Virus genome (UHGV): UHGV-1977856 | Length of the DNA: 11,273 nucleotides | Direction: 5' to 3' (one strand) | DNA from: a virus | Part shown: one piece after another, positions 1 to 11,050 of the stretch | How the letters are laid out: every line of letters begins with the position of its first letter | Position numbering within the stretch: the stretch's first letter is position 1 | Program-made: the position numbers and the translations under genes | The notes under the pieces: model-generated | Told to the model about the DNA's origin: nothing | What the model saw: only the letters and a program-made list of their open reading frames with translations | Databases searched by the model: none

Positions 1-77
1 CAGACACCACTGACCGCGTCATTAATCACGCAATTCCGGCGAGAATGCGGCTATCTGCAAAGTTAAAACTGCATAAA

Positions 78-117
78 AAAATAGAGTCTGTCGACATCCG
101 CCAGACTCTACAGTACA
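78..117 (-). terminator. Rho-independent terminator-like hairpin oriented for the - strand
   Basis: Perfect inverted repeat tagagtctg...cagactcta with an A-run at 78-84 on + (a T-run 3' of the hairpin on the - strand). No T-run follows on the + strand. Lies in the presumed host flank left of the element. Confidence 0.4.
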
Positions 118-386
118 CACAGCAGTGCATCCGCGTCTTAAGTCCGGCATTGTCTCCTCTGCGCCGGTGACTGTGTTATAACGGTTTTAACCTTTAGTTG
201 CCAATTTTCTTCAGTGACAGATTTCACGAAAATATAAGTTACATTATTAATATCGTGATTTTATAAATTAGTGTTTTTTGCTGTTTCATAATGTGCCACG
301 TTGTTCATTATGTTTTTGATTTTTAAGCTCATTGCAATTTTTCTTGTTCCAACTTGTTCCACGTTGTACCCCCTTGTGCAATGATC

Positions 387-411
387 GGTGTAGTTAATGG
401 TGTAGTTAATT
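387..411. repeat. Left terminal direct repeat ggtgtagttaatggtgtagttaatt (tandem 12-mer); candidate integrase arm-type site or att repeat
   Basis: Exact 25-bp match to 11026-11050; extends to 29 bp with one mismatch (ga[t/a]cggtg...). Ends immediately before the int start. Confidence 0.6.
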
Positions 412-2270: not shown

Positions 2271-3461
2271 ATGAATACTGGATATTCTCCCGAACAAGGG
2301 CGGGGCTTCGTTCGTCCTGAAAAACAGAATCTGCAAAATTTTGCCGAAATTATTCCGGTTATTTCCGGCCTTACTGGCGGGAGTGAAACCAATATTGTTA
2401 ACGCCAGAGCGTTGCAGATGTTTGATGATAAAAAGGGAGTAAATTTAACTTACACCCCTGACGGCAATCAGAATATGAGCATTATCTCTGAGTCAGGTTT
2501 CTACAAACTAATAAAAACAAAAAGCGCCCCGTTGCCGGAGCGCCTTTGTGAACAATTAACCTACTGCGCAAAAAATGAATCTGAGCAGTGGGATTATATC
2601 AACCGTGTGGCGAAGCGCCACAATTGCCGGATAACAGGCAAAACAAAGGCCACCCGCTACGGTGGCCCCTCGACACAAGCTACACGTTATCCCCAACGCA
2701 TGAGCATCACCAACAATGCCACATTTGCGGCTGGTGGGCAATGTGATCAGTCAGATTTGGTTCGTTCCAAGGTTTGCAACGAGAGCTTTTTCCTGTGCTC
2801 TTTAAGGAATTTCTCAAGAGCAAAAGCACATGGCGCGAATCTTTCTGATTCATGCTCTATCTTTCTGCGCCGTCTTTTCCGTGCCGGTGATAATGTTTTG
2901 GTCAATTCTTTATCGGTCATTGTGTTGTCCTGCATAGCAATGCGCCGTAATACCTTACACCACGGCGCTGATGGTGATTACTCTGGTTCTTTGGTCTTGC
3001 GACGCTGGAGTTCTTCGCGTGCAACGGTGACAAGCTGCCCGATTTCTTCCGCTGCTTTGATGCCGATTTGTTCGACCTTAGCCAGGGCATCCAGTGACGA
3101 CACAAGGGGATTTTCTCCGCTGCCTTCTGCTTGGCGGCGGGCTATTTCTCCGCGCATGGCGGTTACGATAAATCCGGCATTGCTTTCGCCGTCCAGCTTA
3201 ACGGATTCCATCCCTTGCATAACATCTAGTGGGACTCTGACAGTTGTCAGTTGTGATTTTGCGTTTTTGTTAGCCGTTGCCATTTCTGAAACTCCTAATC
3301 ATCGGTGTGTTTCAGTATACACAAAAAAAGAAATACAAAAAGCCTTGACGTGTGTTTCATGCGCTCATAACATGAAACACACCAAAAGAATTGTTGAAAT
3401 ACAAAGAGCAACGCCCCGCAGTGCCGGAAACACATACGGGGCGTCTAACCACCAACGATAG
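2271..3461 (+). CDS. Uncertain ORF: only the N-terminal ~130 codons look protein-like (weak BRO-N/KilA-N-like ESGFYKLI motif); possible pseudogene or read-through artefact
   Basis: Residues after about 2700 are Ser/Cys/Arg-rich low-complexity and lie exactly antisense to two better-supported - strand genes (2747-2920, 2978-3283). No in-frame stop until 3461. Confidence 0.25.
   Translation: MNTGYSPEQGRGFVRPEKQNLQNFAEIIPVISGLTGGSETNIVNARALQMFDDKKGVNLTYTPDGNQNMSIISESGFYKLIKTKSAPLPERLCEQLTYCAKNESEQWDYINRVAKRHNCRITGKTKATRYGGPSTQATRYPQRMSITNNATFAAGGQCDQSDLVRSKVCNESFFLCSLRNFSRAKAHGANLSDSCSIFLRRLFRAGDNVLVNSLSVIVLSCIAMRRNTLHHGADGDYSGSLVLRRWSSSRATVTSCPISSAALMPICSTLARASSDDTRGFSPLPSAWRRAISPRMAVTINPALLSPSSLTDSIPCITSSGTLTVVSCDFAFLLAVAISETPNHRCVSVYTKKEIQKALTCVSCAHNMKHTKRIVEIQRATPRSAGNTYGASNHQR
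2747..2920 (-). CDS. Small basic hypothetical protein (57 aa, MTDKELTKTLSPARKRRRRKIEHE...)
   Basis: Start taken at the internal ATG 2920, which has an SD (AGGA, 7-nt spacing); the ORF-track start 2935 lacks one. Lies downstream of, and co-oriented with, the RHH gene. Confidence 0.45.
   Translation of the reverse strand: MTDKELTKTLSPARKRRRRKIEHESERFAPCAFALEKFLKEHRKKLSLQTLERTKSD
2978..3283 (-). CDS. Ribbon-helix-helix (CopG/Arc-like) DNA-binding protein; candidate repressor of the element
   Basis: 101 aa with a good SD (ttaGGAGtttcagaaATG). N-terminus fits the RHH fold pattern: beta-strand TTVRVP, helix LDVMQGMESVKL, turn DGESNAG, helix FIVTAMRGEIARRQ. Sits divergent to the rightward operon, next to an inverted-repeat operator. 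Confidence 0.6.
   Translation of the reverse strand: MATANKNAKSQLTTVRVPLDVMQGMESVKLDGESNAGFIVTAMRGEIARRQAEGSGENPLVSSLDALAKVEQIGIKAAEEIGQLVTVAREELQRRKTKEPE
3304..3385. promoter_or_regulatory. Divergent promoter/operator region: rightward sigma70-like promoter overlapped by an 11-bp inverted repeat, plus a third half-site near the RHH gene start
   Basis: TTGACG (3345-3350), 17-bp spacer, TAACAT (3368-3373). Inverted repeat tgtgtttcatg (3351-3361) / catgaaacaca (3371-3381). A further tgtgtttca copy lies at 3307-3315. A leftward -10-like TATACT is the reverse complement of 3316-3321. Confidence 0.55.
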
Positions 3462-3480
3462 CAAGATTATCGAGGCTGCT

Positions 3481-3687
3481 ATGAGAAATCATACCATACA
3501 CCCGCAAGGGCGGGACTCGCACAACCTGAATAAATACATCTGGCGTTTTATCGCCCTGAGTACGGTACAACCGCGCGTGATTACCATTGAGGCCACCAGC
3601 GAACAGGAAGCCCGTCAGCAATCACCGGCTGGCTGCGTGATGGTATTCGCCGCCCGTATTCGTCAGGGGGTGCACCATGTGCAATAA
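3481..3687 (+). CDS. Small hypothetical protein (68 aa); tentatively recalls Icd-like small proteins of P4-type elements
   Basis: ATG 3481 has an SD (cGAGGctgctATG); the ORF-track start 3391 is a TTG without SD. Product MRNHTIHPQGRDSHNLNKYIWRFIALS...ITIEATSEQEARQQ... The family resemblance is from memory only. Its stop overlaps the next gene's start. Confidence 0.5.
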   Translation: MRNHTIHPQGRDSHNLNKYIWRFIALSTVQPRVITIEATSEQEARQQSPAGCVMVFAARIRQGVHHVQ

Positions 3688-3916
3688 CACCCGTCCGGAC
3701 GCAGCCGCCGAAGCAATCAAAACACTGATTGATGCGCTGATTGATATTTCATGCACGGCAGCAACCGCAGAAAAACACATTACCAGAGAGACGGAATATA
3801 CAGGGGCAATAATCCCCCATTCGCTGGCATACGCACAGATTACCGCTGATATGGCACTGAATGAGGCTAAAGCCATCCTGATTGCTGATTGTGAAAATGG
3901 GGGGGGTTATGCGTGA
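3677..3916 (+). CDS. Hypothetical small protein (79 aa)
   Basis: ATG overlaps the upstream stop (cATGTGCAATAA), indicating translational coupling in the operon. No recognisable domain. Confidence 0.5.
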   Translation: MCNNTRPDAAAEAIKTLIDALIDISCTAATAEKHITRETEYTGAIIPHSLAYAQITADMALNEAKAILIADCENGGGYA

Positions 3917-4142
3917 TGATCGTTTTAATGCCCTGAAACAGGAATTTGATGGCGCACCGGAAGATACAGATATTGCGCTGTTATGTGTTGCTGACATGGT
4001 AAAAGCTGCATGTTTTTTACTGGAAACCGCCGAACATTCAGGAACGGGTAGCGATATTCTCAATATTGCGTCGGACTATGCGGAATATGTGGCAGAGGCA
4101 CGTTACAGAAGAAAATTACCGGAGGATGTAAGCCATGCATAA
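3909..4142 (+). CDS. Hypothetical small acidic protein (about 77 aa)
   Basis: ATG 3909 is preceded by a G-run SD and overlaps the upstream stop. The ORF-track start 3882 is TTG. No recognisable domain. Confidence 0.45.
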   Translation: MRDDRFNALKQEFDGAPEDTDIALLCVADMVKAACFLLETAEHSGTGSDILNIASDYAEYVAEARYRRKLPEDVSHA

Positions 4143-4335
4143 TCATGAATCGCACTTACCTGTCGTGCTGAATGTGCCGTCAGATTATACGGGGCGCGTT
4201 TTGATATTCCTGGATAAAGGGAAAGTGAAATCACAATGCCGTCTTAGAAATAATGAGGTTGTTGGTTCTCTGGCTTTTTTTTCTGAAGCCTGTATTCGTA
4301 CCGGAATAAAACCGGAATCACTGACAGGAAAATAA
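4135..4335 (+). CDS. Hypothetical small protein (66 aa)
   Basis: SD ccGGAGGatgtaagccATG; start overlaps the upstream stop by 8 nt. Confidence 0.5.
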   Translation: MHNHESHLPVVLNVPSDYTGRVLIFLDKGKVKSQCRLRNNEVVGSLAFFSEACIRTGIKPESLTGK

Positions 4336-4339
4336 AACC

Positions 4340-4639
4340 ATGAAAAAGAAAATTTCTGGCTTTACTGCCAGCGGCCCCGCTCGGCCTGAAATCCGCCCCG
4401 GCGATATTTTCCGGGATAACTACGGCGGCACGGTAACGATTAAAAGCGTGGCGGGACGGTGCGTTACTTACCGCCGTGATGGGTACGGTTATGACTGCGT
4501 GATGCCTGTTTATCAGTTCCGGCGTGATTTTTCGCTGGTACAGGCCACACCACGCAGACAGCCCACCAGCAACGCAAAGGCACGGGCAAATATTCAGAAA
4601 ATGAAAAACATGATTAACGCATTCAGGGGCACAAAATGA
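4340..4639 (+). CDS. Hypothetical small protein (99 aa)
   Basis: SD acAGGAAaataaaaccATG; its stop overlaps the rep start (ATGA). Confidence 0.5.
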   Translation: MKKKISGFTASGPARPEIRPGDIFRDNYGGTVTIKSVAGRCVTYRRDGYGYDCVMPVYQFRRDFSLVQATPRRQPTSNAKARANIQKMKNMINAFRGTK

Positions 4640-6051
4640 AATTGGCACCGAACTTAAAAAAACAGCCACACGACAAAATGACCGAAGTCATTATTTTTGC
4701 GGGTAGTGATGCCTGGGCGCACGCGAAACAATGGCAGGAACAGGACGGGCGACTTGCTGGCGACAACGTGCCACCTGTATGGCTTGGAGACAGCCAGCTT
4801 GACGAACTGGCAGACCTGAAAATCATCGATGATGGTCGCTATTGTGTCCGGCTGTACAAGGCAGGCCACATCAAGCCGTCAAATATTAATGCCATCGGGC
4901 AAAAGCTGGCGGCGGCAGGTGTACGGGATGCGAATTATTACCCTGAGGGAATGCACAGCCAGAAGCTGGAGAACTGGCACGACTACCTGCAACGGATCCG
5001 CGAACAGACAGAGCGCGGGGAAATACTTACTGACGAGCAATACAGCCAGCGAAAAACCACGCTACCAATGAGCATTGGATCTGCAGGGTACGACACACAG
5101 CTTGATTATGTCGTTAAGGGCGTGATTCCGGCTAATTCATTGTGCAGCACATACGGCGCGAGCGGTTCCTATAAATCGTTCCTCGCGTGTTCCTGGGCGT
5201 GTCATGTTGCCACGGGTCGCCACTGGGGAGGCCGCAGGGTGGCGCATGGTTCGGTGATGTATGTCGTCGGTGAAGGGGGGATAGGTGTCCCCCGTCGTAT
5301 CAAGGCATGGGAAATCGTTAATGATGAACGGGTGGAAAATCTGTACCTGGTAAACCGCCCGATTTTTCCGGCAGTCCCGCTTGATGTCGATGAAATGGTC
5401 ATCGCTTCCCGCCAGGTTGAACGGGAAACGGGTAAACCGGTACGCATGATTATTCTGGATACGCTGGCGCGTTGCTTTGGCGGTAATGATGAAAATGACG
5501 CGCGGGATATGGGGGCGTTTATCCGTGGATGTGACGAACTGAAACGACGCACAGGGGCCACAGTGCTGGTGGTTCACCATTCCGGCAAGGATGAAACAAA
5601 GGGGGCGCGTGGTTCCAGTGCATTTCGTGCATCTCTGGACGCTGAATACCGTATTCGCCGTGAAGGTGCAGACAGTGAAGCCCTGGTTATCTCCTGCACC
5701 AAAATGAAGGACGCGGAGGAACTGAAAGAGGCTGCATACGATTTACGTGTGGTGGAGCTTTTTACCGACACTGACGGGGAGTTAATCACGTCGCTGGTGG
5801 TTGTGGATAAACCGCGCCCACCCGTTGAACTGGAGCGCATCGAGGAAGCCGGGAACAAGACGGAGAATCATGCCGCGCTATGGGGCTGTATCCGTTCACG
5901 CACACAGCGCGGCGATAAATGCACAATTCCGTTGTTGCGTGATGATATGAAAAAGCTGGGGTATGAGATGAAACACTTCCGGCGCTGGCTGTACAAGCTG
6001 GAAGGTGATGGCGTTATTGCTATTGACGGTGATGACGTGTGCCCACTGTAA
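4636..6051 (+). CDS. Replication initiator / helicase with RecA-like (AAA_25, RepA-like) ATPase domain; N-terminal ~160 aa of unknown function
   Basis: 471 aa. P-loop-like GASGSYKS, Walker B-like MIILDTLARCFGG, and a VVHHSGKD motif typical of RepA-like helicases. Followed directly by an iteron array. No primase motifs recognised by eye. Confidence 0.8.
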   Translation: MKLAPNLKKQPHDKMTEVIIFAGSDAWAHAKQWQEQDGRLAGDNVPPVWLGDSQLDELADLKIIDDGRYCVRLYKAGHIKPSNINAIGQKLAAAGVRDANYYPEGMHSQKLENWHDYLQRIREQTERGEILTDEQYSQRKTTLPMSIGSAGYDTQLDYVVKGVIPANSLCSTYGASGSYKSFLACSWACHVATGRHWGGRRVAHGSVMYVVGEGGIGVPRRIKAWEIVNDERVENLYLVNRPIFPAVPLDVDEMVIASRQVERETGKPVRMIILDTLARCFGGNDENDARDMGAFIRGCDELKRRTGATVLVVHHSGKDETKGARGSSAFRASLDAEYRIRREGADSEALVISCTKMKDAEELKEAAYDLRVVELFTDTDGELITSLVVVDKPRPPVELERIEEAGNKTENHAALWGCIRSRTQRGDKCTIPLLRDDMKKLGYEMKHFRRWLYKLEGDGVIAIDGDDVCPL

Positions 6052-6245
6052 AAAGTGGGTAGTAAAAGTGGGGAGTGTGGGGAATTTAACAAAATTGAAA
6101 CGCGATTCCCCACTTTCCCACCTGTATATACCCCAAAAAGTGGGGAATAAAAATACATTGAAAAACATCACGTTAGAATCACAAAAAAAGAAGTGGGGAG
6201 ATGTTGGGTAATTTCAAAAAGTGGGTAGTAAAAGTGGGGAGCAGT
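6052..6245. repeat. Iteron-type replication origin
   Basis: AAGTGGG(G/T)A(G/A) recurs at 6053, 6066, 6077, 6138, 6191, 6219 and 6232, plus one inverted copy (ttccccactt, 6106-6115). A 24-bp block aaaagtgggtagtaaaagtggggag is duplicated at 6051-6075 and 6217-6241, bracketing an AT-rich core (6150-6190). Confidence 0.7.
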
Positions 6246-6935: not shown

Positions 6936-6960
6936 AAGCCGGAACAATCCGGCTTTTTTA
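6936..6960 (+). terminator. Rho-independent terminator after ssb
   Basis: Hairpin agccgg-aacaat-ccggct followed by tttttta, 15 nt after the ssb stop. Confidence 0.7.
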
Positions 6961-7034
6961 CGGGTCCTCCCGATGGAGTGGCCTTGCCACGGGGCGGGAG
7001 CGGCGCGGAAAAAGGCTGGTTTTTGCATTTTCAT
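6954..7034. repeat. Copy A of a duplicated ~80-bp GC-rich element containing a cosN-like motif
   Basis: Near-identical to 9489-9570; differs only in an internal segment (atggagtggcc versus gtgtggtgtcc). Contains ACGGGGCGGGAGCGGCGCGG at 6989-7008. Confidence 0.75.
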
Positions 7035-7345: not shown

Positions 7346-7555
7346 GTGAATTGTATTAACGACCTGAACACAGGCGAGGTAAAAGGTGGTTCCGTTCATC
7401 TGGATGCGCAGACCGTTATGCGCCTTAAGCAGTACAGGATCGACCACATAAATCATCATCCTGACCAACCATTACCAGGTGTGGCGCAGATTGTCAGACA
7501 CGCAGTTAACGCGTGGCTTGATAAGAATGGTTTTGCATCTGGGGGTGAGCAATGA
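7346..7555 (+). CDS. Hypothetical small protein (69 aa), first gene of the capsid operon
   Basis: GTG start with a strong SD (aagaggaag, about 6-nt spacing); its stop overlaps the protease::MCP start (ATGA). Confidence 0.55.
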   Translation: MNCINDLNTGEVKGGSVHLDAQTVMRLKQYRIDHINHHPDQPLPGVAQIVRHAVNAWLDKNGFASGGEQ

Positions 7556-9465
7556 ATCACTGGTACACCATTAAGGCGGCGGGTGTTCGCGGAGCGGCAG
7601 AAATATCCATCTATGAAGAAATTGGCGGCTTCGGTATCACCGCGAAGCAGTTTGCGGAAGACCTGAAAGCCCTGGGCGATGTCTCACATATCGACCTGCG
7701 GATCCATTCGCCAGGTGGTGACGTGTTTGAAGGCATCGCCATCTATAACCTGTTACGGAATCATCCGGCAGAAATTACGGTTTATATCGATGGTGTTGCG
7801 GCTTCAATGGCTTCGGTTGTCGCAATGGCTGGCGATCGTGTTGTGATGCCGGAAAACGCCATGATGATGATACATAAGCCGTGGGGTATCTCTGGCGGAA
7901 ATGCTGGTGATATGCGTGATTATGCTGATTTGCTGGATAAGGTGGAAACCGTGTTAGTCCCTGCTTATGCCAGAAAAACGGGCAAATCAGCACAGGAAAT
8001 TACCGCCATGCTGGAAGATGAAACCTGGATGGACGGGAAAGAATGCCTTAAGCACGGTTTTGCTGATGAATTGTTGCCATCTGTCACAGCAATGGCGCGA
8101 ATTGAATCGAAACGCACAGGAGATTTTTCACACATGCCGGAAACCATTAAAGGAATGATTACCCCGCCACAGGGAGCAGCCAATATTGCTGGTAATGAAC
8201 AGAAGCGCATCAACGGAATAAGTGAAGTGTTTAGCCTGTTCGGCAGTCGTTACGACGGGATCAAAATGGCGTGCCTGGAAGATGCATCATGTACACCGGA
8301 GATGGCCCGTGAAAAGTTGTTGAACGAGATGGGGCGCGAGTCCACGCCATCCAATAAAAATACCCCGGCTCATATTTATGCCGGTAACGGGAACATAACA
8401 GGCGATGCAATTCGTCAGGGGCTTTATTCCCGTCTCGGGTATGAACGCCCAGAGCGGGGAAATCCTTACGCGATGATGAGCCTTTTTGAAATGGCCCAGG
8501 CATCACTAACGGATCGTGGTATCAGTGTTGGCGGTTTTTTAAATCGCTCGCAGGTCGTTAATGCAGCTTTCACACACAGCAGCAGCGATTTTTCTCACAT
8601 TCTGGCTGGTGGTGCTGAAAAATCAGTACTGAAAGGCTGGCAGGACAGCGGCGAAACGTTCCAGAAATGGACGCGTACCGGATCGCTTTCAAACTTTCAT
8701 GAAGCAAAGCGCGTTGGTCTGAATGGTTTTTCAAAGCTGGATAAAGTACCGGAAGGTGCGGAATATAAATACATCACCACCAGCGATAAAGGTGTACCTA
8801 TTGCGCTGGCCACATACGGTAATATTTTTTCTGTTACCCGTCAGGCCATTATCAACGATGACCTGACCCAGTTAACTACAATCCCCATGGCGATGGGGCG
8901 TGCGGCCGCCAGAACAGTAGGTAATCTGGTTTATCTTCTGTTAACCAGCAACGGCAAATTTACGGATAGTAAAGCGTTATTCCATGCCGATCATAAAAAT
9001 CTTATTGCGAAGGATATGGACATGGAGGGGCTTAACGAAGCCCGTAAGCTGATGCGACTACAGGAGGATGCCAACGGCGACTCCCTGAATATTACCCCCG
9101 CATTTGTCCTGGTCCCCGCCGCGCTGGAGTCTGCCGCACATCGCGCCATTCTGTCATCGTCATCACTCTTTCCGGTTGATGGTGATGGCACTATCAATCA
9201 GAACCCCGGCATCATTAACGTGGTGAAAGATATGGCTGAGGTTATTGTTGAGCCACGTCTTGATAAGAACAATAACAAGGAGTGGTATGTAGCCGCAGCG
9301 AAAGGGATGGACACGATAGAGGTCGCTTATCTTGATGGTATTGATACGCCATATCTTGAGGAGCAGGTGGGCTTTACTGTTGATGGTGTCGCCTGGAAGG
9401 TGCGCATAGATGCAGGTGTCGCGGCCCTCGATTATCGTGGACTACTGAAATCGAACGGAGCATGA
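7552..9465 (+). CDS. Fusion protein: ClpP-like (S14) prohead protease N-terminal domain + HK97-fold / Mu gpT-like major capsid protein C-terminal domain
   Basis: 637 aa. N-terminus carries ClpP motifs (HSPGGDVFEGIAIYNLL...IDGVAASMASVVAMAGDRVVMPENAMMMIHKPWG). C-terminal ~330 aa fit the major-head-subunit pattern (KYITTSDKGVPIALATYGNIFSVTRQAIINDDL...IPMAMGRAAART...ITPAFVLVPAALESAA). Confidence 0.85.
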   Translation: MNHWYTIKAAGVRGAAEISIYEEIGGFGITAKQFAEDLKALGDVSHIDLRIHSPGGDVFEGIAIYNLLRNHPAEITVYIDGVAASMASVVAMAGDRVVMPENAMMMIHKPWGISGGNAGDMRDYADLLDKVETVLVPAYARKTGKSAQEITAMLEDETWMDGKECLKHGFADELLPSVTAMARIESKRTGDFSHMPETIKGMITPPQGAANIAGNEQKRINGISEVFSLFGSRYDGIKMACLEDASCTPEMAREKLLNEMGRESTPSNKNTPAHIYAGNGNITGDAIRQGLYSRLGYERPERGNPYAMMSLFEMAQASLTDRGISVGGFLNRSQVVNAAFTHSSSDFSHILAGGAEKSVLKGWQDSGETFQKWTRTGSLSNFHEAKRVGLNGFSKLDKVPEGAEYKYITTSDKGVPIALATYGNIFSVTRQAIINDDLTQLTTIPMAMGRAAARTVGNLVYLLLTSNGKFTDSKALFHADHKNLIAKDMDMEGLNEARKLMRLQEDANGDSLNITPAFVLVPAALESAAHRAILSSSSLFPVDGDGTINQNPGIINVVKDMAEVIVEPRLDKNNNKEWYVAAAKGMDTIEVAYLDGIDTPYLEEQVGFTVDGVAWKVRIDAGVAALDYRGLLKSNGA

Positions 9466-9472
9466 CAACAAG

Positions 9473-9495
9473 GGCGGCGACAGCCGCCTTTTTTT
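9473..9495 (+). terminator. Rho-independent terminator after the capsid gene; stem overlaps a lambda cohesive-end-like GGGCGGCGAC
   Basis: Hairpin ggcggc-gaca-gccgcc followed by ttttttt, 8 nt after the stop. Confidence 0.65.
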
Positions 9496-9570
9496 ACGGG
9501 TCCTCCCGGTGTGGTGTCCTTGCCACGGGGCGGGAGCGGCGCGGAAAAAGGCTGGTTTTTGCATTTTCAT
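9489..9570. repeat. Copy B of the duplicated ~80-bp GC-rich element containing a cosN-like motif
   Basis: Matches 6954-7034. Contains ACGGGGCGGGAGCGGCGCGG at 9525-9544. Confidence 0.75.
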
Positions 9571-9723: not shown

Positions 9724-10209
9724 ATGGATCGGGAACTGAAAAATCTGATGCTGAACATTAACCAGCTGGCGGCGATAGCGGGAATATGTCGCCAGACTGC
9801 GGCGGCAAGGCTGAAAAATATCCAGCCAGCCGGAGGACATGACAAGCTGAAACTCTATCGGGTGACTGACATTCTGACCTGTTTTCTTGATCTTCCCGTT
9901 CCGGCATCACTGGAAGAAATGGAGCCACACGACCGTAAGGCCTGGTATCAGTCCGAACGTGAGCGCCTCAAGTTCGAACAGGAAACGGCGCAACTCATAC
10001 CCGCCGATGATGTGCGAAAAGAGATGGCTATATGGGGAGAAATCGTAAGCGAGGAACTGGAAAAACTCCCCAGTATTCTGGCACGTGATGCTGGGCTTAA
10101 ACCGATGGCAGTAAACAGAGTGCAGTCAATTATTGACGATTTGTGTAATCAGATTATCAGCCGGATGGTGAAAAATGACGTAGTGAATGAGGTCGCAAAA
10201 CAGGCATGA
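9724..10209 (+). CDS. Small terminase subunit, lambda Nu1-like (N-terminal winged-HTH); candidate packaging-specificity / redirection protein
   Basis: ATG 9724 has an SD (GGAG, 7-nt spacing); the ORF-track start 9667 is a TTG. The 162-aa product parallels lambda gpNu1 in length and pattern: NINQLAAIAGICRQTAAARL / AGGHDKLKLYRVTDIL versus Nu1 NKKQLADIFGASIRTIQNW / GGGKGNEVLYDSAAVI, and C-terminal EIVSEELEKLPSILARD versus IAGEIASILDGLPLSV (Nu1 recalled from memory). Confidence 0.7.
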   Translation: MDRELKNLMLNINQLAAIAGICRQTAAARLKNIQPAGGHDKLKLYRVTDILTCFLDLPVPASLEEMEPHDRKAWYQSERERLKFEQETAQLIPADDVRKEMAIWGEIVSEELEKLPSILARDAGLKPMAVNRVQSIIDDLCNQIISRMVKNDVVNEVAKQA

Positions 10210-10539: not shown

Positions 10540-11025
10540 AGACGGTATTTAAATCGGGTGGTGTTTAATACCCCCAGGGGGATAGAAATCCCTACACCTC
10601 ATTGCTTATGGGACCGCCCGCCTACCCTTGTTCACATCGCCGCAGGTTCGAAAACTTTTTTTGGGAAGGTGTGCACGGGATTGATAGATGAGGTCTATCT
10701 ATAAAAAATCACAAAATCCGCGCCATTGCTGGATCCGCCAAAAATCCCCCACCTTACGGCAGACAAAGAAAACGCGAATTATGGGCCTGTTGCAGAGAAA
10801 AAAGGTCTCACTAGTTTTGCGCACCCTAGCATCGAGGTTCGTCAGCCTCCCATCAGCAACCAGATAACTAATCTCGCTGGTGGGCATGATGCCGATATGG
10901 GGACTTCCATAACGGTTTATCCGTGATCATCCACCAGCTTCATGGCGGATAGCCGGAAAATGATAACGGTATAGCCCGTCGCTTGTGTCTATTTGTTCCG
11001 CATTGTTGCATACAGTGCACCGAAC

Positions 11026-11050
11026 GGTGTAGTTAATGGTGTAGTTAATT
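11026..11050. repeat. Right terminal direct repeat ggtgtagttaatggtgtagttaatt
   Basis: Exact 25-bp match to 387-411. Confidence 0.6.

What the first reader, a model, noticed from the sequence alone, without database searches (positions are those of the whole stretch)
3481..4639. Five translationally coupled small ORFs of unknown function between the switch and rep
Genes of 66-99 aa at 3481-3687, 3677-3916, 3909-4142, 4135-4335 and 4340-4639 overlap start-to-stop (ATGA or 8-nt overlaps) and read into rep. None has a domain I can assign with confidence; the first only tentatively recalls Icd-like proteins. In satellites this position often holds helper-interference factors, anti-defence proteins or other accessory cargo. 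These are the best candidates in the window for an uncharacterised function.
Basis: inference. Interest (0 to 1): 0.55.

Follow-up and report, generated by a model that had tools for sequence, protein, structure and literature searches.

The report
Satellite early operon with slippery gene junction
The five small genes are the real, conserved front end of the replication operon of an E. coli phage satellite; two belong to known families, and the second and third meet at a run of eight Gs whose length varies in nature and makes them either two proteins or one fused protein.

Summary
The five ORFs exist exactly as described and match RefSeq annotation. They are not all unknown. ORF1 is an Icd-like protein (P1 cell-division-inhibitor family). 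ORF5 is a DUF4222 protein, 67% identical over its full length to RgdR, a characterised EHEC regulator. ORF4 is a minority allele in a replaceable gene slot.

The main new result concerns ORF2 and ORF3. They meet at a G8 run (3899-3906). In relatives this run ranges from G6 to G12:
- G7 and G10 give one fused protein of 154-155 aa.
- G8, G9 and G11 give two proteins, the second restarting at an ATG two bases after the run.
- In-frame lengths make up only 21-56% of sequences across three collections.

Both halves stay intact and under purifying selection in either state. Distant relatives carry the halves as separate genes.

The best reading is a frameshift-tolerant junction between two coupled genes inside the early operon of an EcCICFT073-type PICI. 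The biochemical function of ORF2, ORF3 and ORF4 remains unknown. A positionally equivalent operon in ECOR61 was reported to cause phage-triggered growth arrest.

Interest is moderate: a new variant of known phenomena.

The parts
2978..3283 (-). Divergent YlcI/YnfO-family gene on the other side of the switch
   Evidence: NCBIfam NF041551 at 63 bits against a cut-off of 30. phrog_6522 at E 1e-63. Annotated in RefSeq. A homologue sits in the same divergent position in the distant island L095.
3345..3373 (+). Sigma-70-like promoter for the small-ORF/rep operon (TTGACG, 17 nt, TAACAT)
   Evidence: Consensus scan. This is a pattern match only, and the number of matches in the region is no higher than in shuffled sequence.
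3305..3434 (.). Four copies of the half-site GTGTGTTTCA/TGAAACACAC, including a palindrome (3350-3383) that spans the -10 hexamer; a likely operator
   Evidence: the repeat finder families D3, D4, I1, I3 and I6. The operator role is inferred.
3481..3687 (+). ORF1, an Icd-like protein (68 aa) and first gene of the operon
   Evidence: NF033153 at E 8.8e-19. phrog_6196 at E 3.6e-45. 35% identity to P1 Icd over 43 aa, pairwise E 5e-6. 53% identity to Sakai ECs1577.
3677..3916 (+). ORF2, the 'N' gene (79 aa in this G8 allele, ending ...ENGGGYA); predicted helical hairpin
   Evidence: phrog_5146 at E 2e-27, and the N half of phrog_2512. This exact protein is seen on 126 contigs. The AF2 model of the fused form has helices 9-37 and 47-73.
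3899..3906 (+). G8 homopolymer at the ORF2/ORF3 junction. It encodes the Gly linker in fused alleles and serves as the Shine-Dalgarno-like element for the ATG at 3909 in split alleles
   Evidence: The only G or C run of 7 or more in the window. G7 in relative L002 gives one 154-aa ORF in otherwise near-identical DNA.
3909..4142 (+). ORF3, the 'C' gene (77 aa); predicted three-helix unit
   Evidence: phrog_24341 at E 4e-36, and the C half of phrog_2512. This exact protein is seen on 91 contigs. Stand-alone homologues of 75-77 aa begin at the same Met. In L095 the C-like gene follows the Icd-like gene directly.
4135..4335 (+). ORF4 (66 aa, phrog_340), a minority allele of a variable slot; contains a T8 run at 4275-4282
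   Evidence: phrog_340 at E 2e-18. Only 33 protein clusters, all Escherichia or Enterobacteriaceae. Present in 5 of 90 related loci; most of the others carry an unrelated 77-aa protein in the same slot. A 38%-identical homologue sits in the same slot in L095.
4340..4639 (+). ORF5, a DUF4222/RgdR-family protein (99 aa) whose stop overlaps the rep start codon (ATGA)
4636..6051 (+). RepA-family helicase (rep), the last gene of the coupled chain
   Evidence: PF13481 AAA_25 at E 3e-44. phrog_2850 at E 4e-251. RefSeq name 'helicase RepA family protein'. Iterons lie just 3' of it at 6050-6241.

Best explanation
The five ORFs are the promoter-proximal part of the early/replication operon of an EcCICFT073-type phage-inducible chromosomal island (PICI). 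The island is about 10.7 kb and is inserted between mcaS/abgR and smrA.

The operon starts at a promoter overlapped by an operator-like palindrome. It faces a divergent YlcI/YnfO-like gene. It is read as a translationally coupled chain: Icd-like, N, C, ORF4, RgdR-like, then RepA.

Shown here:
- ORF1 belongs to the P1 Icd family.
- ORF5 is a close homologue of RgdR. Its predicted fold is a Tudor/SH3-like barrel plus a basic helix.
- These two genes frame a set of replaceable small-gene slots.
- ORF2 (N) and ORF3 (C) are two genes whose boundary is a slippage-prone poly-G run. Run lengths of 3n+1 fuse them into one 154-155-aa helical protein. Other lengths leave two proteins.
- Both states are common in nature, and both halves stay intact and constrained in either state.

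Inferred:
- In split alleles the C protein is still made, because the G run acts as a ribosome-binding site for the ATG two bases downstream.
- The junction is therefore frameshift-tolerant and drifts in length with little or no selection on frame.
- N and C fold independently or act together.
- On induction, the Icd-like protein arrests host division while the island replicates.
- The RgdR-like protein is a small nucleic-acid- or polymerase-associated cofactor tied to the replication gene.
- N, C and ORF4 are exchangeable modules that probably bind a phage or host partner.
For: Identity and context:
- The 1,401-base query (window 3300-4700) is 100% identical to two RefSeq genomes; in PI7 the island genes lie between abgR and smrA.
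- The island has att repeats at 343-411 and 10982-11050, and iterons 3' of rep.
- int and alpA are present.

Conserved frame:
- Among 90 related loci, Icd-like is present in 89, N in 90, C in 89, DUF4222 in 81 and RepA in 80. Window-type ORF4 is present in only 5.
- The slot between C and DUF4222 is almost always 200-245 nt. It usually holds an unrelated 77-aa protein.
- Sakai Sp7 and the distant island L095 have the same layout with other rep types.

Poly-G junction:
- The window and L002 differ only by G8 versus G7 plus one SNP. L002 then has a single 154-aa ORF.
- Fused proteins fall into two main groups: 60 of the 120 best clusters are 154 aa, typically with junction GG-V (G7), and 50 are 155 aa, typically with junction GGG-V (G10).
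- IMG/VR tract spectrum: G7 23, G8 34, G9 18, G10 4, G11 2, plus 9 interrupted tracts.
- Metagenome spectrum: G7 10, G8 27, G9 12.
- RefSeq complete genomes, evenly spaced sample: G6 1, G7 27, G8 14, G9 6, G10 2, G11 1. One-gene versus two-gene annotation tracks the frame in all 51 rows with an annotated gene; a 52nd row had no annotated feature.
- Exact-protein counts: the G8 form is on 126 contigs, and the fused G7 form on 193.
- 7 of 11 repeated flank haplotypes carry more than one tract length.
- After collapsing by haplotype, 21 of 80 are in frame, not different from one third (p = 0.19).
- Both half-ORFs are open in nearly all loci in every phase.
- dN/dS is the same for in-frame and out-of-frame alleles (C half 0.28 versus 0.27).
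- The Met after the tract is present in all 120 fused proteins.
- Distant relatives encode N and C separately, without a poly-G run.
Against: - No expression data exist. Translation of C in split alleles and use of the G run as a ribosome-binding site are inferred from sequence alone.
- One set of 22 RefSeq genomes with the same alignment identity to the query are all G7. Switching is therefore not fast within that lineage, and G7 could be favoured there.
- L095 has a C-like gene without an N gene, and N and C allele types recombine freely. An obligate N:C complex is therefore not supported.
- The fused-protein model is only of moderate confidence (pLDDT 71, pTM 0.53) and has no structural neighbours.
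- The promoter match is no better than expected by chance.
- The functions of Icd-like and RgdR-like proteins in a PICI have not been tested. PHROG labels ORF1's family 'transcriptional repressor', which conflicts with the Icd name.
Confidence: 0.6

Rival explanations
1. The window's ORF2 and ORF3 are a frameshift-inactivated pseudogene. The true gene is the fused 154-aa form, and the split alleles are decaying nulls of a dispensable gene.
For: A single +1 G separates the window from an intact 154-aa ORF. Fused proteins are abundant and diverse. Rare alleles restore the frame by another route, for example ...GGG-MRDDR, which is G8 plus loss of a T. The fused form is the most common in the RefSeq complete-genome sample.
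Against: - Out-of-frame lengths are the majority in two of three collections, and G8 is the modal length.
- Truncated C halves are rare in every phase.
- dN/dS of the C half is 0.27 among out-of-frame alleles and 0.28 among in-frame alleles.
- The restart ATG and the upstream G run are always present.
- Distant relatives have separate N and C genes.
- Nine interrupted tracts, such as GGGGGTGG, are all out of frame with intact halves.
Confidence: 0.1
2. The poly-G run is an adaptive contingency (phase-variation) switch. Fused and split forms have different activities, for example a different phage or helper specificity or an on/off state of an interference function, and selection maintains the hypermutable run.
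For: The G run persists across about 70 flank haplotypes despite 25-50% synonymous divergence. Length changes recur on identical backgrounds. All frames are common. N and C alleles are mosaic and fairly fast-evolving (N half dN/dS 0.49), as expected for genes in conflict with phages.
Against: The phase frequencies fit neutral drift (p = 0.19 against one third). The length spectrum is unimodal around G8 with no three-base periodicity. A set of 22 RefSeq genomes with the same alignment identity to the query are uniformly G7. Runs of 7-9 G in mismatch-repair-proficient E. coli are mutational warm spots rather than classical high-rate switches (general knowledge). No phenotype is known.
Confidence: 0.12
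3. The tract-length differences are homopolymer sequencing or assembly errors, and only one state exists in nature.
For: Homopolymers are error-prone on some platforms. Identical flanks with different run lengths are what such errors would produce.
Against: The same spectrum appears in three independent collections: genome-derived viral contigs, short-read metagenome assemblies and finished RefSeq genomes, including reference-grade strains such as NCTC86 and FDAARGOS_1249. Error rates of 40-80% would be required. Interrupted tracts created by substitutions are also out of frame. The exact G8-form protein occurs on 126 contigs.
Confidence: 0.03
4. The cassette is an abortive-infection or superinfection-exclusion module. 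The Icd-like protein is a growth-arrest effector, and the variable middle genes (N, C, ORF4) sense or gate particular phage triggers.
For: - Silas et al. report that in ECOR61 a phage accessory gene (orf24) triggers cell death.
- That phenotype needs an Icd-like gene and five linked genes including a primase. Suppressor insertions fell in the Icd-like gene and the two small genes next to it.
- Those three genes have the same sizes (192, 186 nt) and overlaps (1 nt, 8 nt) as Sakai ECs1579, ECs1578 and ECs1577.
- The ECOR61 system therefore appears to be the equivalent early operon of an Sp7-type island.
- The window's operon has the same six-gene architecture and homologous first, fifth and sixth positions.
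Against: The window's middle genes are not homologous to ECs1578-1580. No PADLOC defence model matches any of the proteins. The ECOR61 phenotype could be a side effect of inducing island replication, since AlpA-driven EcCICFT073 replication also impairs growth (PMC6092414). The equivalence of ECOR61 and Sp7 is inferred from coordinates, not from sequence.
Confidence: 0.25

Closest known systems
Early operon of E. coli PICIs and cf-PICIs (EcCICFT073; CP-933C/OI-51, which is Sakai Sp7)
   Same: The order is the same: int, alpA, a divergent switch, a run of overlapping small ORFs, a DUF4222 gene overlapping the replication gene, a small hypothetical gene (86% identical), SSB, and then capsid-related genes. 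The Icd-like gene is 53% identical and the RgdR-like gene 67% identical to the Sp7 genes. Flockhart et al. list CFT073 c1493 as an RgdR orthologue.
   Different: The middle genes (N, C, ORF4) are unrelated to ECs1578-1580. Rep is a RepA-type helicase rather than a primase. The morphogenesis module is limited to a protease/capsid fusion and a DUF1441 protein rather than a full cf-PICI set.
RgdR (ECs1581), the DUF4222 regulator of LEE type III secretion and motility in EHEC O157:H7
   Same: Both are 99 aa, with 67% identity and no gaps. Both match the same Pfam domain. Both lie immediately upstream of, and overlap, the island's replication gene.
   Different: Residues 20-22 are PGD here, not the RGD motif that gave RgdR its name. 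PGD is the consensus among close homologues. Regulatory activity on host genes was not tested. The Tudor-like fold assignment is new and is only a prediction.
Phage P1 Icd (inhibitor of cell division) in the c4-icd-ant immunity operon
   Same: ORF1 has a family-level HMM match above the cut-off and 35% identity over the 43-aa core. Both are short first ORFs that overlap the next gene (ATGA in P1; 11 nt here).
   Different: No c4-type antisense RNA is detected upstream. The downstream gene is not an antirepressor. BLAST against phage genomes does not reach P1. Division inhibition was not tested.
Homopolymer (simple-sequence-repeat) phase variation and tract-mediated gene fusion or splitting, as in Neisseria, Helicobacter, Campylobacter and Bordetella contingency loci
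   Same: A G run of 7 or more inside coding sequence shows recurrent length changes on identical backgrounds and shifts the reading frame.
   Different: The outcome is not on/off. An in-frame ATG with the G run as its ribosome-binding site lies directly downstream, so the alternatives are one fused protein or two proteins. Frame frequencies look neutral. The host is E. coli, where repeat-based switching is uncommon (general knowledge). I found no description of this locus in the searched literature.
ECOR61 prophage-encoded programmed-cell-death system (Silas et al., bioRxiv 10.1101/2023.04.06.535777)
   Same: An Icd-like first gene is followed by overlapping small genes and a replication gene, six linked genes in all.
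   Different: By gene sizes and overlaps, its middle genes match ECs1578 and ECs1579, not N, C or ORF4. [quoted passage not shown] No trigger is known for the window's cassette.

Membership tests
Icd-like protein family (NCBIfam NF033153; prototype P1 Icd) | HMM match above the curated cut-off | tested here: met
   67.3 bits against a cut-off of 25, E 8.8e-19, covering model positions 1-48 of 48.
Icd-like protein family (NCBIfam NF033153; prototype P1 Icd) | Direct similarity to P1 Icd | tested here: met
   35% identity over 43 aa, pairwise E 5e-6. The similarity is weak: tblastn against all phage records did not retrieve P1.
Icd-like protein family (NCBIfam NF033153; prototype P1 Icd) | c4-type antisense RNA and its target sites upstream, as in the P1 immI operon | tested here: not met
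   A permissive Rfam scan of the whole window gave only McaS and one spurious hit.
Icd-like protein family (NCBIfam NF033153; prototype P1 Icd) | Inhibits host cell division when expressed | not testable with these tools
   Needs expression and microscopy.
DUF4222 / RgdR family | Pfam PF13973 match above the gathering score | tested here: met
   86.1 bits against 27, covering model positions 1-53 of 53.
DUF4222 / RgdR family | Full-length similarity to ECs1581 (99 aa) | tested here: met
   66 of 99 residues identical, no gaps, E 4e-48.
DUF4222 / RgdR family | RGD tripeptide at residues 20-22 | tested here: not met
   The window protein has PGD, and P20 is the consensus of 43 close homologues. 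The source paper shows that residue 20 modulates activity but is not strictly required.
DUF4222 / RgdR family | Activates LEE1 and represses motility | not testable with these tools
   Needs reporter and motility assays.
Gram-negative PICI (EcCICFT073 type) | Integrase, AlpA, own replication gene with iterons immediately 3' of it, flanking att repeats, size of about 10-15 kb, no lysis or tail genes | tested here: met
   int at 412-1662 and an AlpA domain. RepA at 4636-6051, with iterons at 6050-6241. A 69-nt direct repeat at 343-411 and 10982-11050. RefSeq gene content.
Gram-negative PICI (EcCICFT073 type) | Induction, replication and packaging depend on a helper phage | not testable with these tools
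   Needs experiments.
Simple-sequence-repeat contingency (phase-variable) locus | Homopolymer in coding sequence with length polymorphism on otherwise identical backgrounds | tested here: met
   G6 to G12 observed. 7 of 11 repeated haplotypes carry more than one length.
Simple-sequence-repeat contingency (phase-variable) locus | Out-of-frame lengths switch the gene off | tested here: not met
   The downstream half keeps its own ATG and a Shine-Dalgarno-like G run. It stays open and under the same constraint. Stand-alone homologues exist. Expression itself was not measured.
Simple-sequence-repeat contingency (phase-variable) locus | High reversible switching rate within a clone | not testable with these tools
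   One hint against: 22 RefSeq genomes with the same alignment identity to the query are all G7.
ECOR61 Icd-like programmed-cell-death system | Icd-like gene plus linked small genes and a replication gene in one operon | tested here: met
   Six consecutive genes from 3481 to 6051, compared.
ECOR61 Icd-like programmed-cell-death system | Homologous middle genes (61-aa and 63-aa proteins) | tested here: not met
   No BLASTP similarity between ORF2-4 and ECs1578-1580, which are taken as the ECOR61 equivalents on the basis of size and overlap.
ECOR61 Icd-like programmed-cell-death system | Growth arrest triggered by a phage accessory protein | not testable with these tools
   Needs experiments.

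The most novel reading that the evidence does not exclude
The Icd-like-to-rep operons of E. coli PICIs are phage-triggered growth-arrest (abortive-infection) devices. The replaceable middle genes (N, C, ORF4 and their alternatives) set which phage signal is sensed. The poly-G junction is a maintained contingency switch that alternates the N/C sensor between a two-protein form and a single-chain form with different specificity or activity.
Probability: 0.1. Interest if true: 0.7.

Novelty: new variant of a known kind. Interest (0 to 1): 0.45.

Why it matters
1. A block labelled 'unknown small ORFs' becomes an ordered picture: two conserved framing genes (Icd-like and RgdR-like) around exchangeable slots. 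This tells PICI researchers which genes are backbone and which are variable.

2. It links RgdR, known only as an EHEC virulence regulator, to its native setting as the gene coupled to the replication gene of PICIs. It also offers a testable fold hypothesis: a Tudor-like barrel of the kind that docks on RNA polymerase in UvrD, PcrA and CarD.

3. The poly-G junction is a natural within-species polymorphism between two genes and one fused gene. It argues that the N and C proteins tolerate covalent linkage. It also cautions annotators that about half of these loci will appear frameshifted without being dead.

4. The architectural match to the ECOR61 cell-death system suggests that such operons could be scored as candidate anti-phage modules.

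Tried and rejected
- **Internal duplication.** I tested whether the N and C halves are paralogues, which would make the fusion a pseudo-dimer. hhalign of the two half-alignments gave probability 0.2%, so this was rejected.
- **c4/IsrK-type antisense RNA upstream of the Icd-like gene.** No Rfam hit.
- **Sequence search of solved structures.** Nothing significant for ORF1, the fused N/C protein, ORF4 or ORF5: the only matches (fused N/C to designed helical proteins) had E-values of 0.09 or worse.
- **Fold search of the fused N/C model.** The PDB and viral (BFVD) libraries returned only generic helical bundles with E above 1.
- **PADLOC defence models.** No hits for any cassette protein.
- **DNA and protein searches of phage genomes.** One marginal hit only. 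The cassette belongs to chromosomal islands, not to sequenced phages.
- **The 162-aa and 185-aa 'Icd-like/ash' proteins listed in ORF4's 90% cluster.** On inspection they are unrelated tandem Icd-like proteins, so this is a clustering artefact.
- **Co-variation of N and C allele types as evidence of interaction.** All combinations occur, so this is uninformative.
Full report
**1. Observation**

The window holds five consecutive plus-strand ORFs at 3481-3687, 3677-3916, 3909-4142, 4135-4335 and 4340-4639. They encode 68, 79, 77, 66 and 99 aa.

Two RefSeq E. coli chromosomes (strains PI7 and 24AR0357) are 100% identical over the 1,401-base query (window 3300-4700). PGAP annotates the same five CDS there.

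The junctions are:
- an 11-nt overlap between ORF1 and ORF2;
- 8-nt overlaps between ORF2 and ORF3 and between ORF3 and ORF4;
- a 4-nt spacer between ORF4 and ORF5;
- an ATGA overlap between ORF5 and rep.

Every start codon has a purine-rich Shine-Dalgarno-like element upstream. All five proteins match PHROG families, with E-values from 2e-18 to 3.6e-45.

**2. Context**

The window is an island of about 10.7 kb.
- It is bounded by a 69-nt direct repeat at 343-411 and 10982-11050.
- It lies next to the chromosomal sRNA gene mcaS (73-168), between abgR and smrA.
- Its genes are int, alpA, a divergent YlcI/YnfO-family gene, the five ORFs, a RepA-family helicase followed by iterons (6050-6241), a small hypothetical gene, SSB, a ClpP-protease/major-capsid fusion and a DUF1441 protein.

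This is the organisation of Gram-negative PICIs of the EcCICFT073 type. In those elements AlpA is a helper-induced activator, and the origin lies 3' of the replication gene (PMC6092414).

The switch region has a sigma-70-like promoter at 3345-3373 (this match is no better than chance). Four copies of the half-site GTGTGTTTCA are present, two of them forming a palindrome across the -10 hexamer.

**3. ORF1**

- NCBIfam's Icd-like model matches at 67 bits against a cut-off of 25.
- A pairwise comparison with P1 Icd gives 35% identity over the 43-aa core (E 5e-6).
- In P1, icd is likewise a short leading ORF that overlaps the next gene.
- No c4-type RNA precedes ORF1.

**4. ORF5**

- It matches Pfam DUF4222 at 86 bits against 27.
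- It is 67% identical, without gaps, to ECs1581/RgdR.
- RgdR is a 99-aa protein that activates LEE1, represses motility and binds DNA non-specifically (PMC3378721).
- In Sakai, rgdR occupies the same position as ORF5. It follows a run of overlapping small ORFs that begins with an Icd-like gene (53% identical to ORF1). It overlaps the primase start codon.
- The window protein has PGD where RgdR has RGD.
- The AlphaFold model (pLDDT about 90 over residues 20-70) is a five-strand barrel followed by a basic helix.

**5. ORF2 and ORF3**

A close relative (L002) has one 154-aa gene where the window has two. Their DNA differs by one SNP and by G7 versus G8 at window 3899-3906.

Among the 120 best clusters of the fused protein, 60 are 154 aa, typically with junction ENGG-VMRDDR (G7), and 50 are 155 aa, typically with junction ENGGG-V (G10). 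A few are longer.

I scanned public collections for the exact flanks with a variable gap. The tract-length counts were:

| Collection | G6 | G7 | G8 | G9 | G10 | G11 | Other |
|---|---|---|---|---|---|---|---|
| IMG/VR (90 loci) | – | 23 | 34 | 18 | 4 | 2 | 9 interrupted tracts, all out of frame |
| Metagenome contigs (53) | – | 10 | 27 | 12 | 1 | – | 3 interrupted tracts, all out of frame |
| RefSeq complete genomes (evenly spaced 60 of 268) | 1 | 27 | 14 | 6 | 2 | 1 | 1 of another length |

In the RefSeq sample, tract length was inferred from the aligned length. One-gene versus two-gene annotation followed the frame in all 51 rows with an annotated gene; one further full-length row had no annotated feature.

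Further evidence:
- Exact-sequence look-ups found the window's G8-form ORF2 on 126 contigs, the G9 form on 19 or more, and the L002 fused protein on 193.
- 86 loci with full flanks give 69 flank haplotypes. Of the 11 seen more than once, 7 carry more than one tract length.
- After collapsing by haplotype, 21 of 80 are in frame, not different from one third (p = 0.19).
- Both half-ORFs remain open in nearly all loci in every phase.
- dN/dS is 0.49 for the N half and 0.27 for the C half, and is the same for in-frame and out-of-frame alleles.
- The Met that follows the tract is present in every fused protein. It is the initiator of stand-alone C-type proteins in distant relatives.
- In those distant relatives, N-type proteins end without any poly-G.
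- One distant island (L095) has the order Icd-like, C-like (ATGA overlap, ordinary AGGAG site), ORF4-like, DUF4222, primase, with no N gene.

Conclusion: N and C are ancestrally separate, coupled genes. In the E. coli lineage their boundary is a slippage-prone G run that encodes a Gly linker when in frame. When out of frame, by inference, it serves as the ribosome-binding site for the ATG two bases downstream.

Sequencing error cannot explain out-of-frame fractions of 42-79% across three kinds of data. Pseudogenisation does not fit the intact and equally constrained halves. An adaptive switch is not excluded, but neutral drift fits the frequencies.

The fused protein is predicted to be all-helical: two long helices, a linker, then three helices (pLDDT 71). 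It has no significant structural or sequence neighbours. The two halves are not detectably homologous to each other.

**6. ORF4**

- phrog_340 is the only family match.
- Homologues are few and confined to Escherichia and Enterobacteriaceae, although one variant occurs on at least 1,000 contigs.
- Among the 90 N/C loci, only 5 carry it.
- The slot between C and DUF4222 is nearly always 200-245 nt. It usually holds an unrelated 77-aa helical protein.
- L095 has a 38%-identical ORF4-like gene in the same slot.
- ORF4 also contains a T8 run (4275-4282). Truncated 57-aa and 50-aa variants diverge at that point.

**7. Function**

Shown: family membership of ORF1 and ORF5; a conserved frame with variable middle slots; and the fuse/split polymorphism.

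Inferred: co-transcription with rep, translational coupling, division arrest by ORF1, and a cofactor role for ORF5.

A relevant precedent comes from Silas et al. They found that in ECOR61 a phage accessory gene triggers cell death. The phenotype needs an Icd-like gene plus five linked genes including a primase.

The three genes hit by suppressor insertions have the sizes and overlaps of Sakai ECs1579, ECs1578 and ECs1577. That system therefore appears to be the equivalent operon of an Sp7-type island. This equivalence is my inference from coordinates.

The window's cassette shares the architecture and the framing genes, but not the middle genes. No PADLOC model matches any of its proteins.

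**8. Verdict**

The cassette is a member of a known element type with two nameable genes. The poly-G junction that converts two coupled genes into one is, as far as the searched literature shows, undescribed. It is a new variant of homopolymer-driven variation and is of moderate interest.

Noticed in passing
window 73-168 (-): A full-length McaS/IsrA sRNA gene (117.6 bits, E 5e-22) lies in the chromosomal flank. The island's left att repeat starts about 175 nt away, so the island sits immediately beside mcaS.
   Followed up: partly
window 343-411 and 10982-11050: A 69-nt direct repeat (77% identical overall, with an exact 3' core CGGTGTAGTTAATGGTGTAGTTAATT) brackets the island. These are probably attL and attR, giving an element of about 10.7 kb.
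   Followed up: partly
window 6050-6075, 6135-6160, 6216-6241: Three spaced copies of AAAAAGTGGGTAGTAAAAGTGGGGAG lie immediately 3' of rep. They are likely replication-origin iterons, as described for PICIs.
   Followed up: no
window 6954-7034 and 9490-9570: An 81-nt direct repeat (95% identical) lies just downstream of the SSB gene and again just downstream of the protease/capsid fusion gene. Its function is unknown; it could be a terminator, a regulatory site or a packaging-related site.
   Followed up: no
window 4275-4282: There is a T8 run inside ORF4. Public homologues include 57-aa and 50-aa truncated forms that diverge exactly at this point. This is a second homopolymer-linked length polymorphism in the cassette, at lower frequency than the poly-G one.
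   Followed up: partly
window 7552-9465 and 9724-10209: The island carries a ClpP-like prohead protease fused to a major capsid protein, plus a DUF1441 protein, but no portal or large terminase. This partial morphogenesis module resembles the capsid homologue c1499 of EcCICFT073, for which no phenotype was found.
   Followed up: no
window 2271-3461 (+): A 396-aa ORF runs antisense to the YlcI-like gene and is not annotated in RefSeq. Its N-terminus resembles the annotated Sakai protein ECs1576, which is therefore probably a spurious call. The first 130 or so codons may be a remnant of a real gene.
   Followed up: no
protein P0244: A 135-aa protein in which the Icd-like gene is fused in frame to an N-type gene. 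Adjacent overlapping genes in these cassettes can therefore fuse at other junctions too.
   Followed up: no
L093:27501-30733 (Sakai Sp7) versus ECOR61 contig QOYT01000045.1:8940-9675: The three suppressor-hit genes of the ECOR61 cell-death system have the same lengths and overlaps as ECs1579, ECs1578 and ECs1577. The published 'novel prophage superinfection-exclusion system' thus looks like the early operon of a cf-PICI-type island that also encodes RgdR.
   Followed up: partly
L002:7324-9072 versus window 4636-6051: Islands that are about 98% identical from the switch through most of the DUF4222 gene (query bases 1-1240 of 1401) carry different replication genes (a DUF5906 primase versus a RepA helicase). 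The rep module is therefore swapped at the DUF4222/rep boundary.
   Followed up: no
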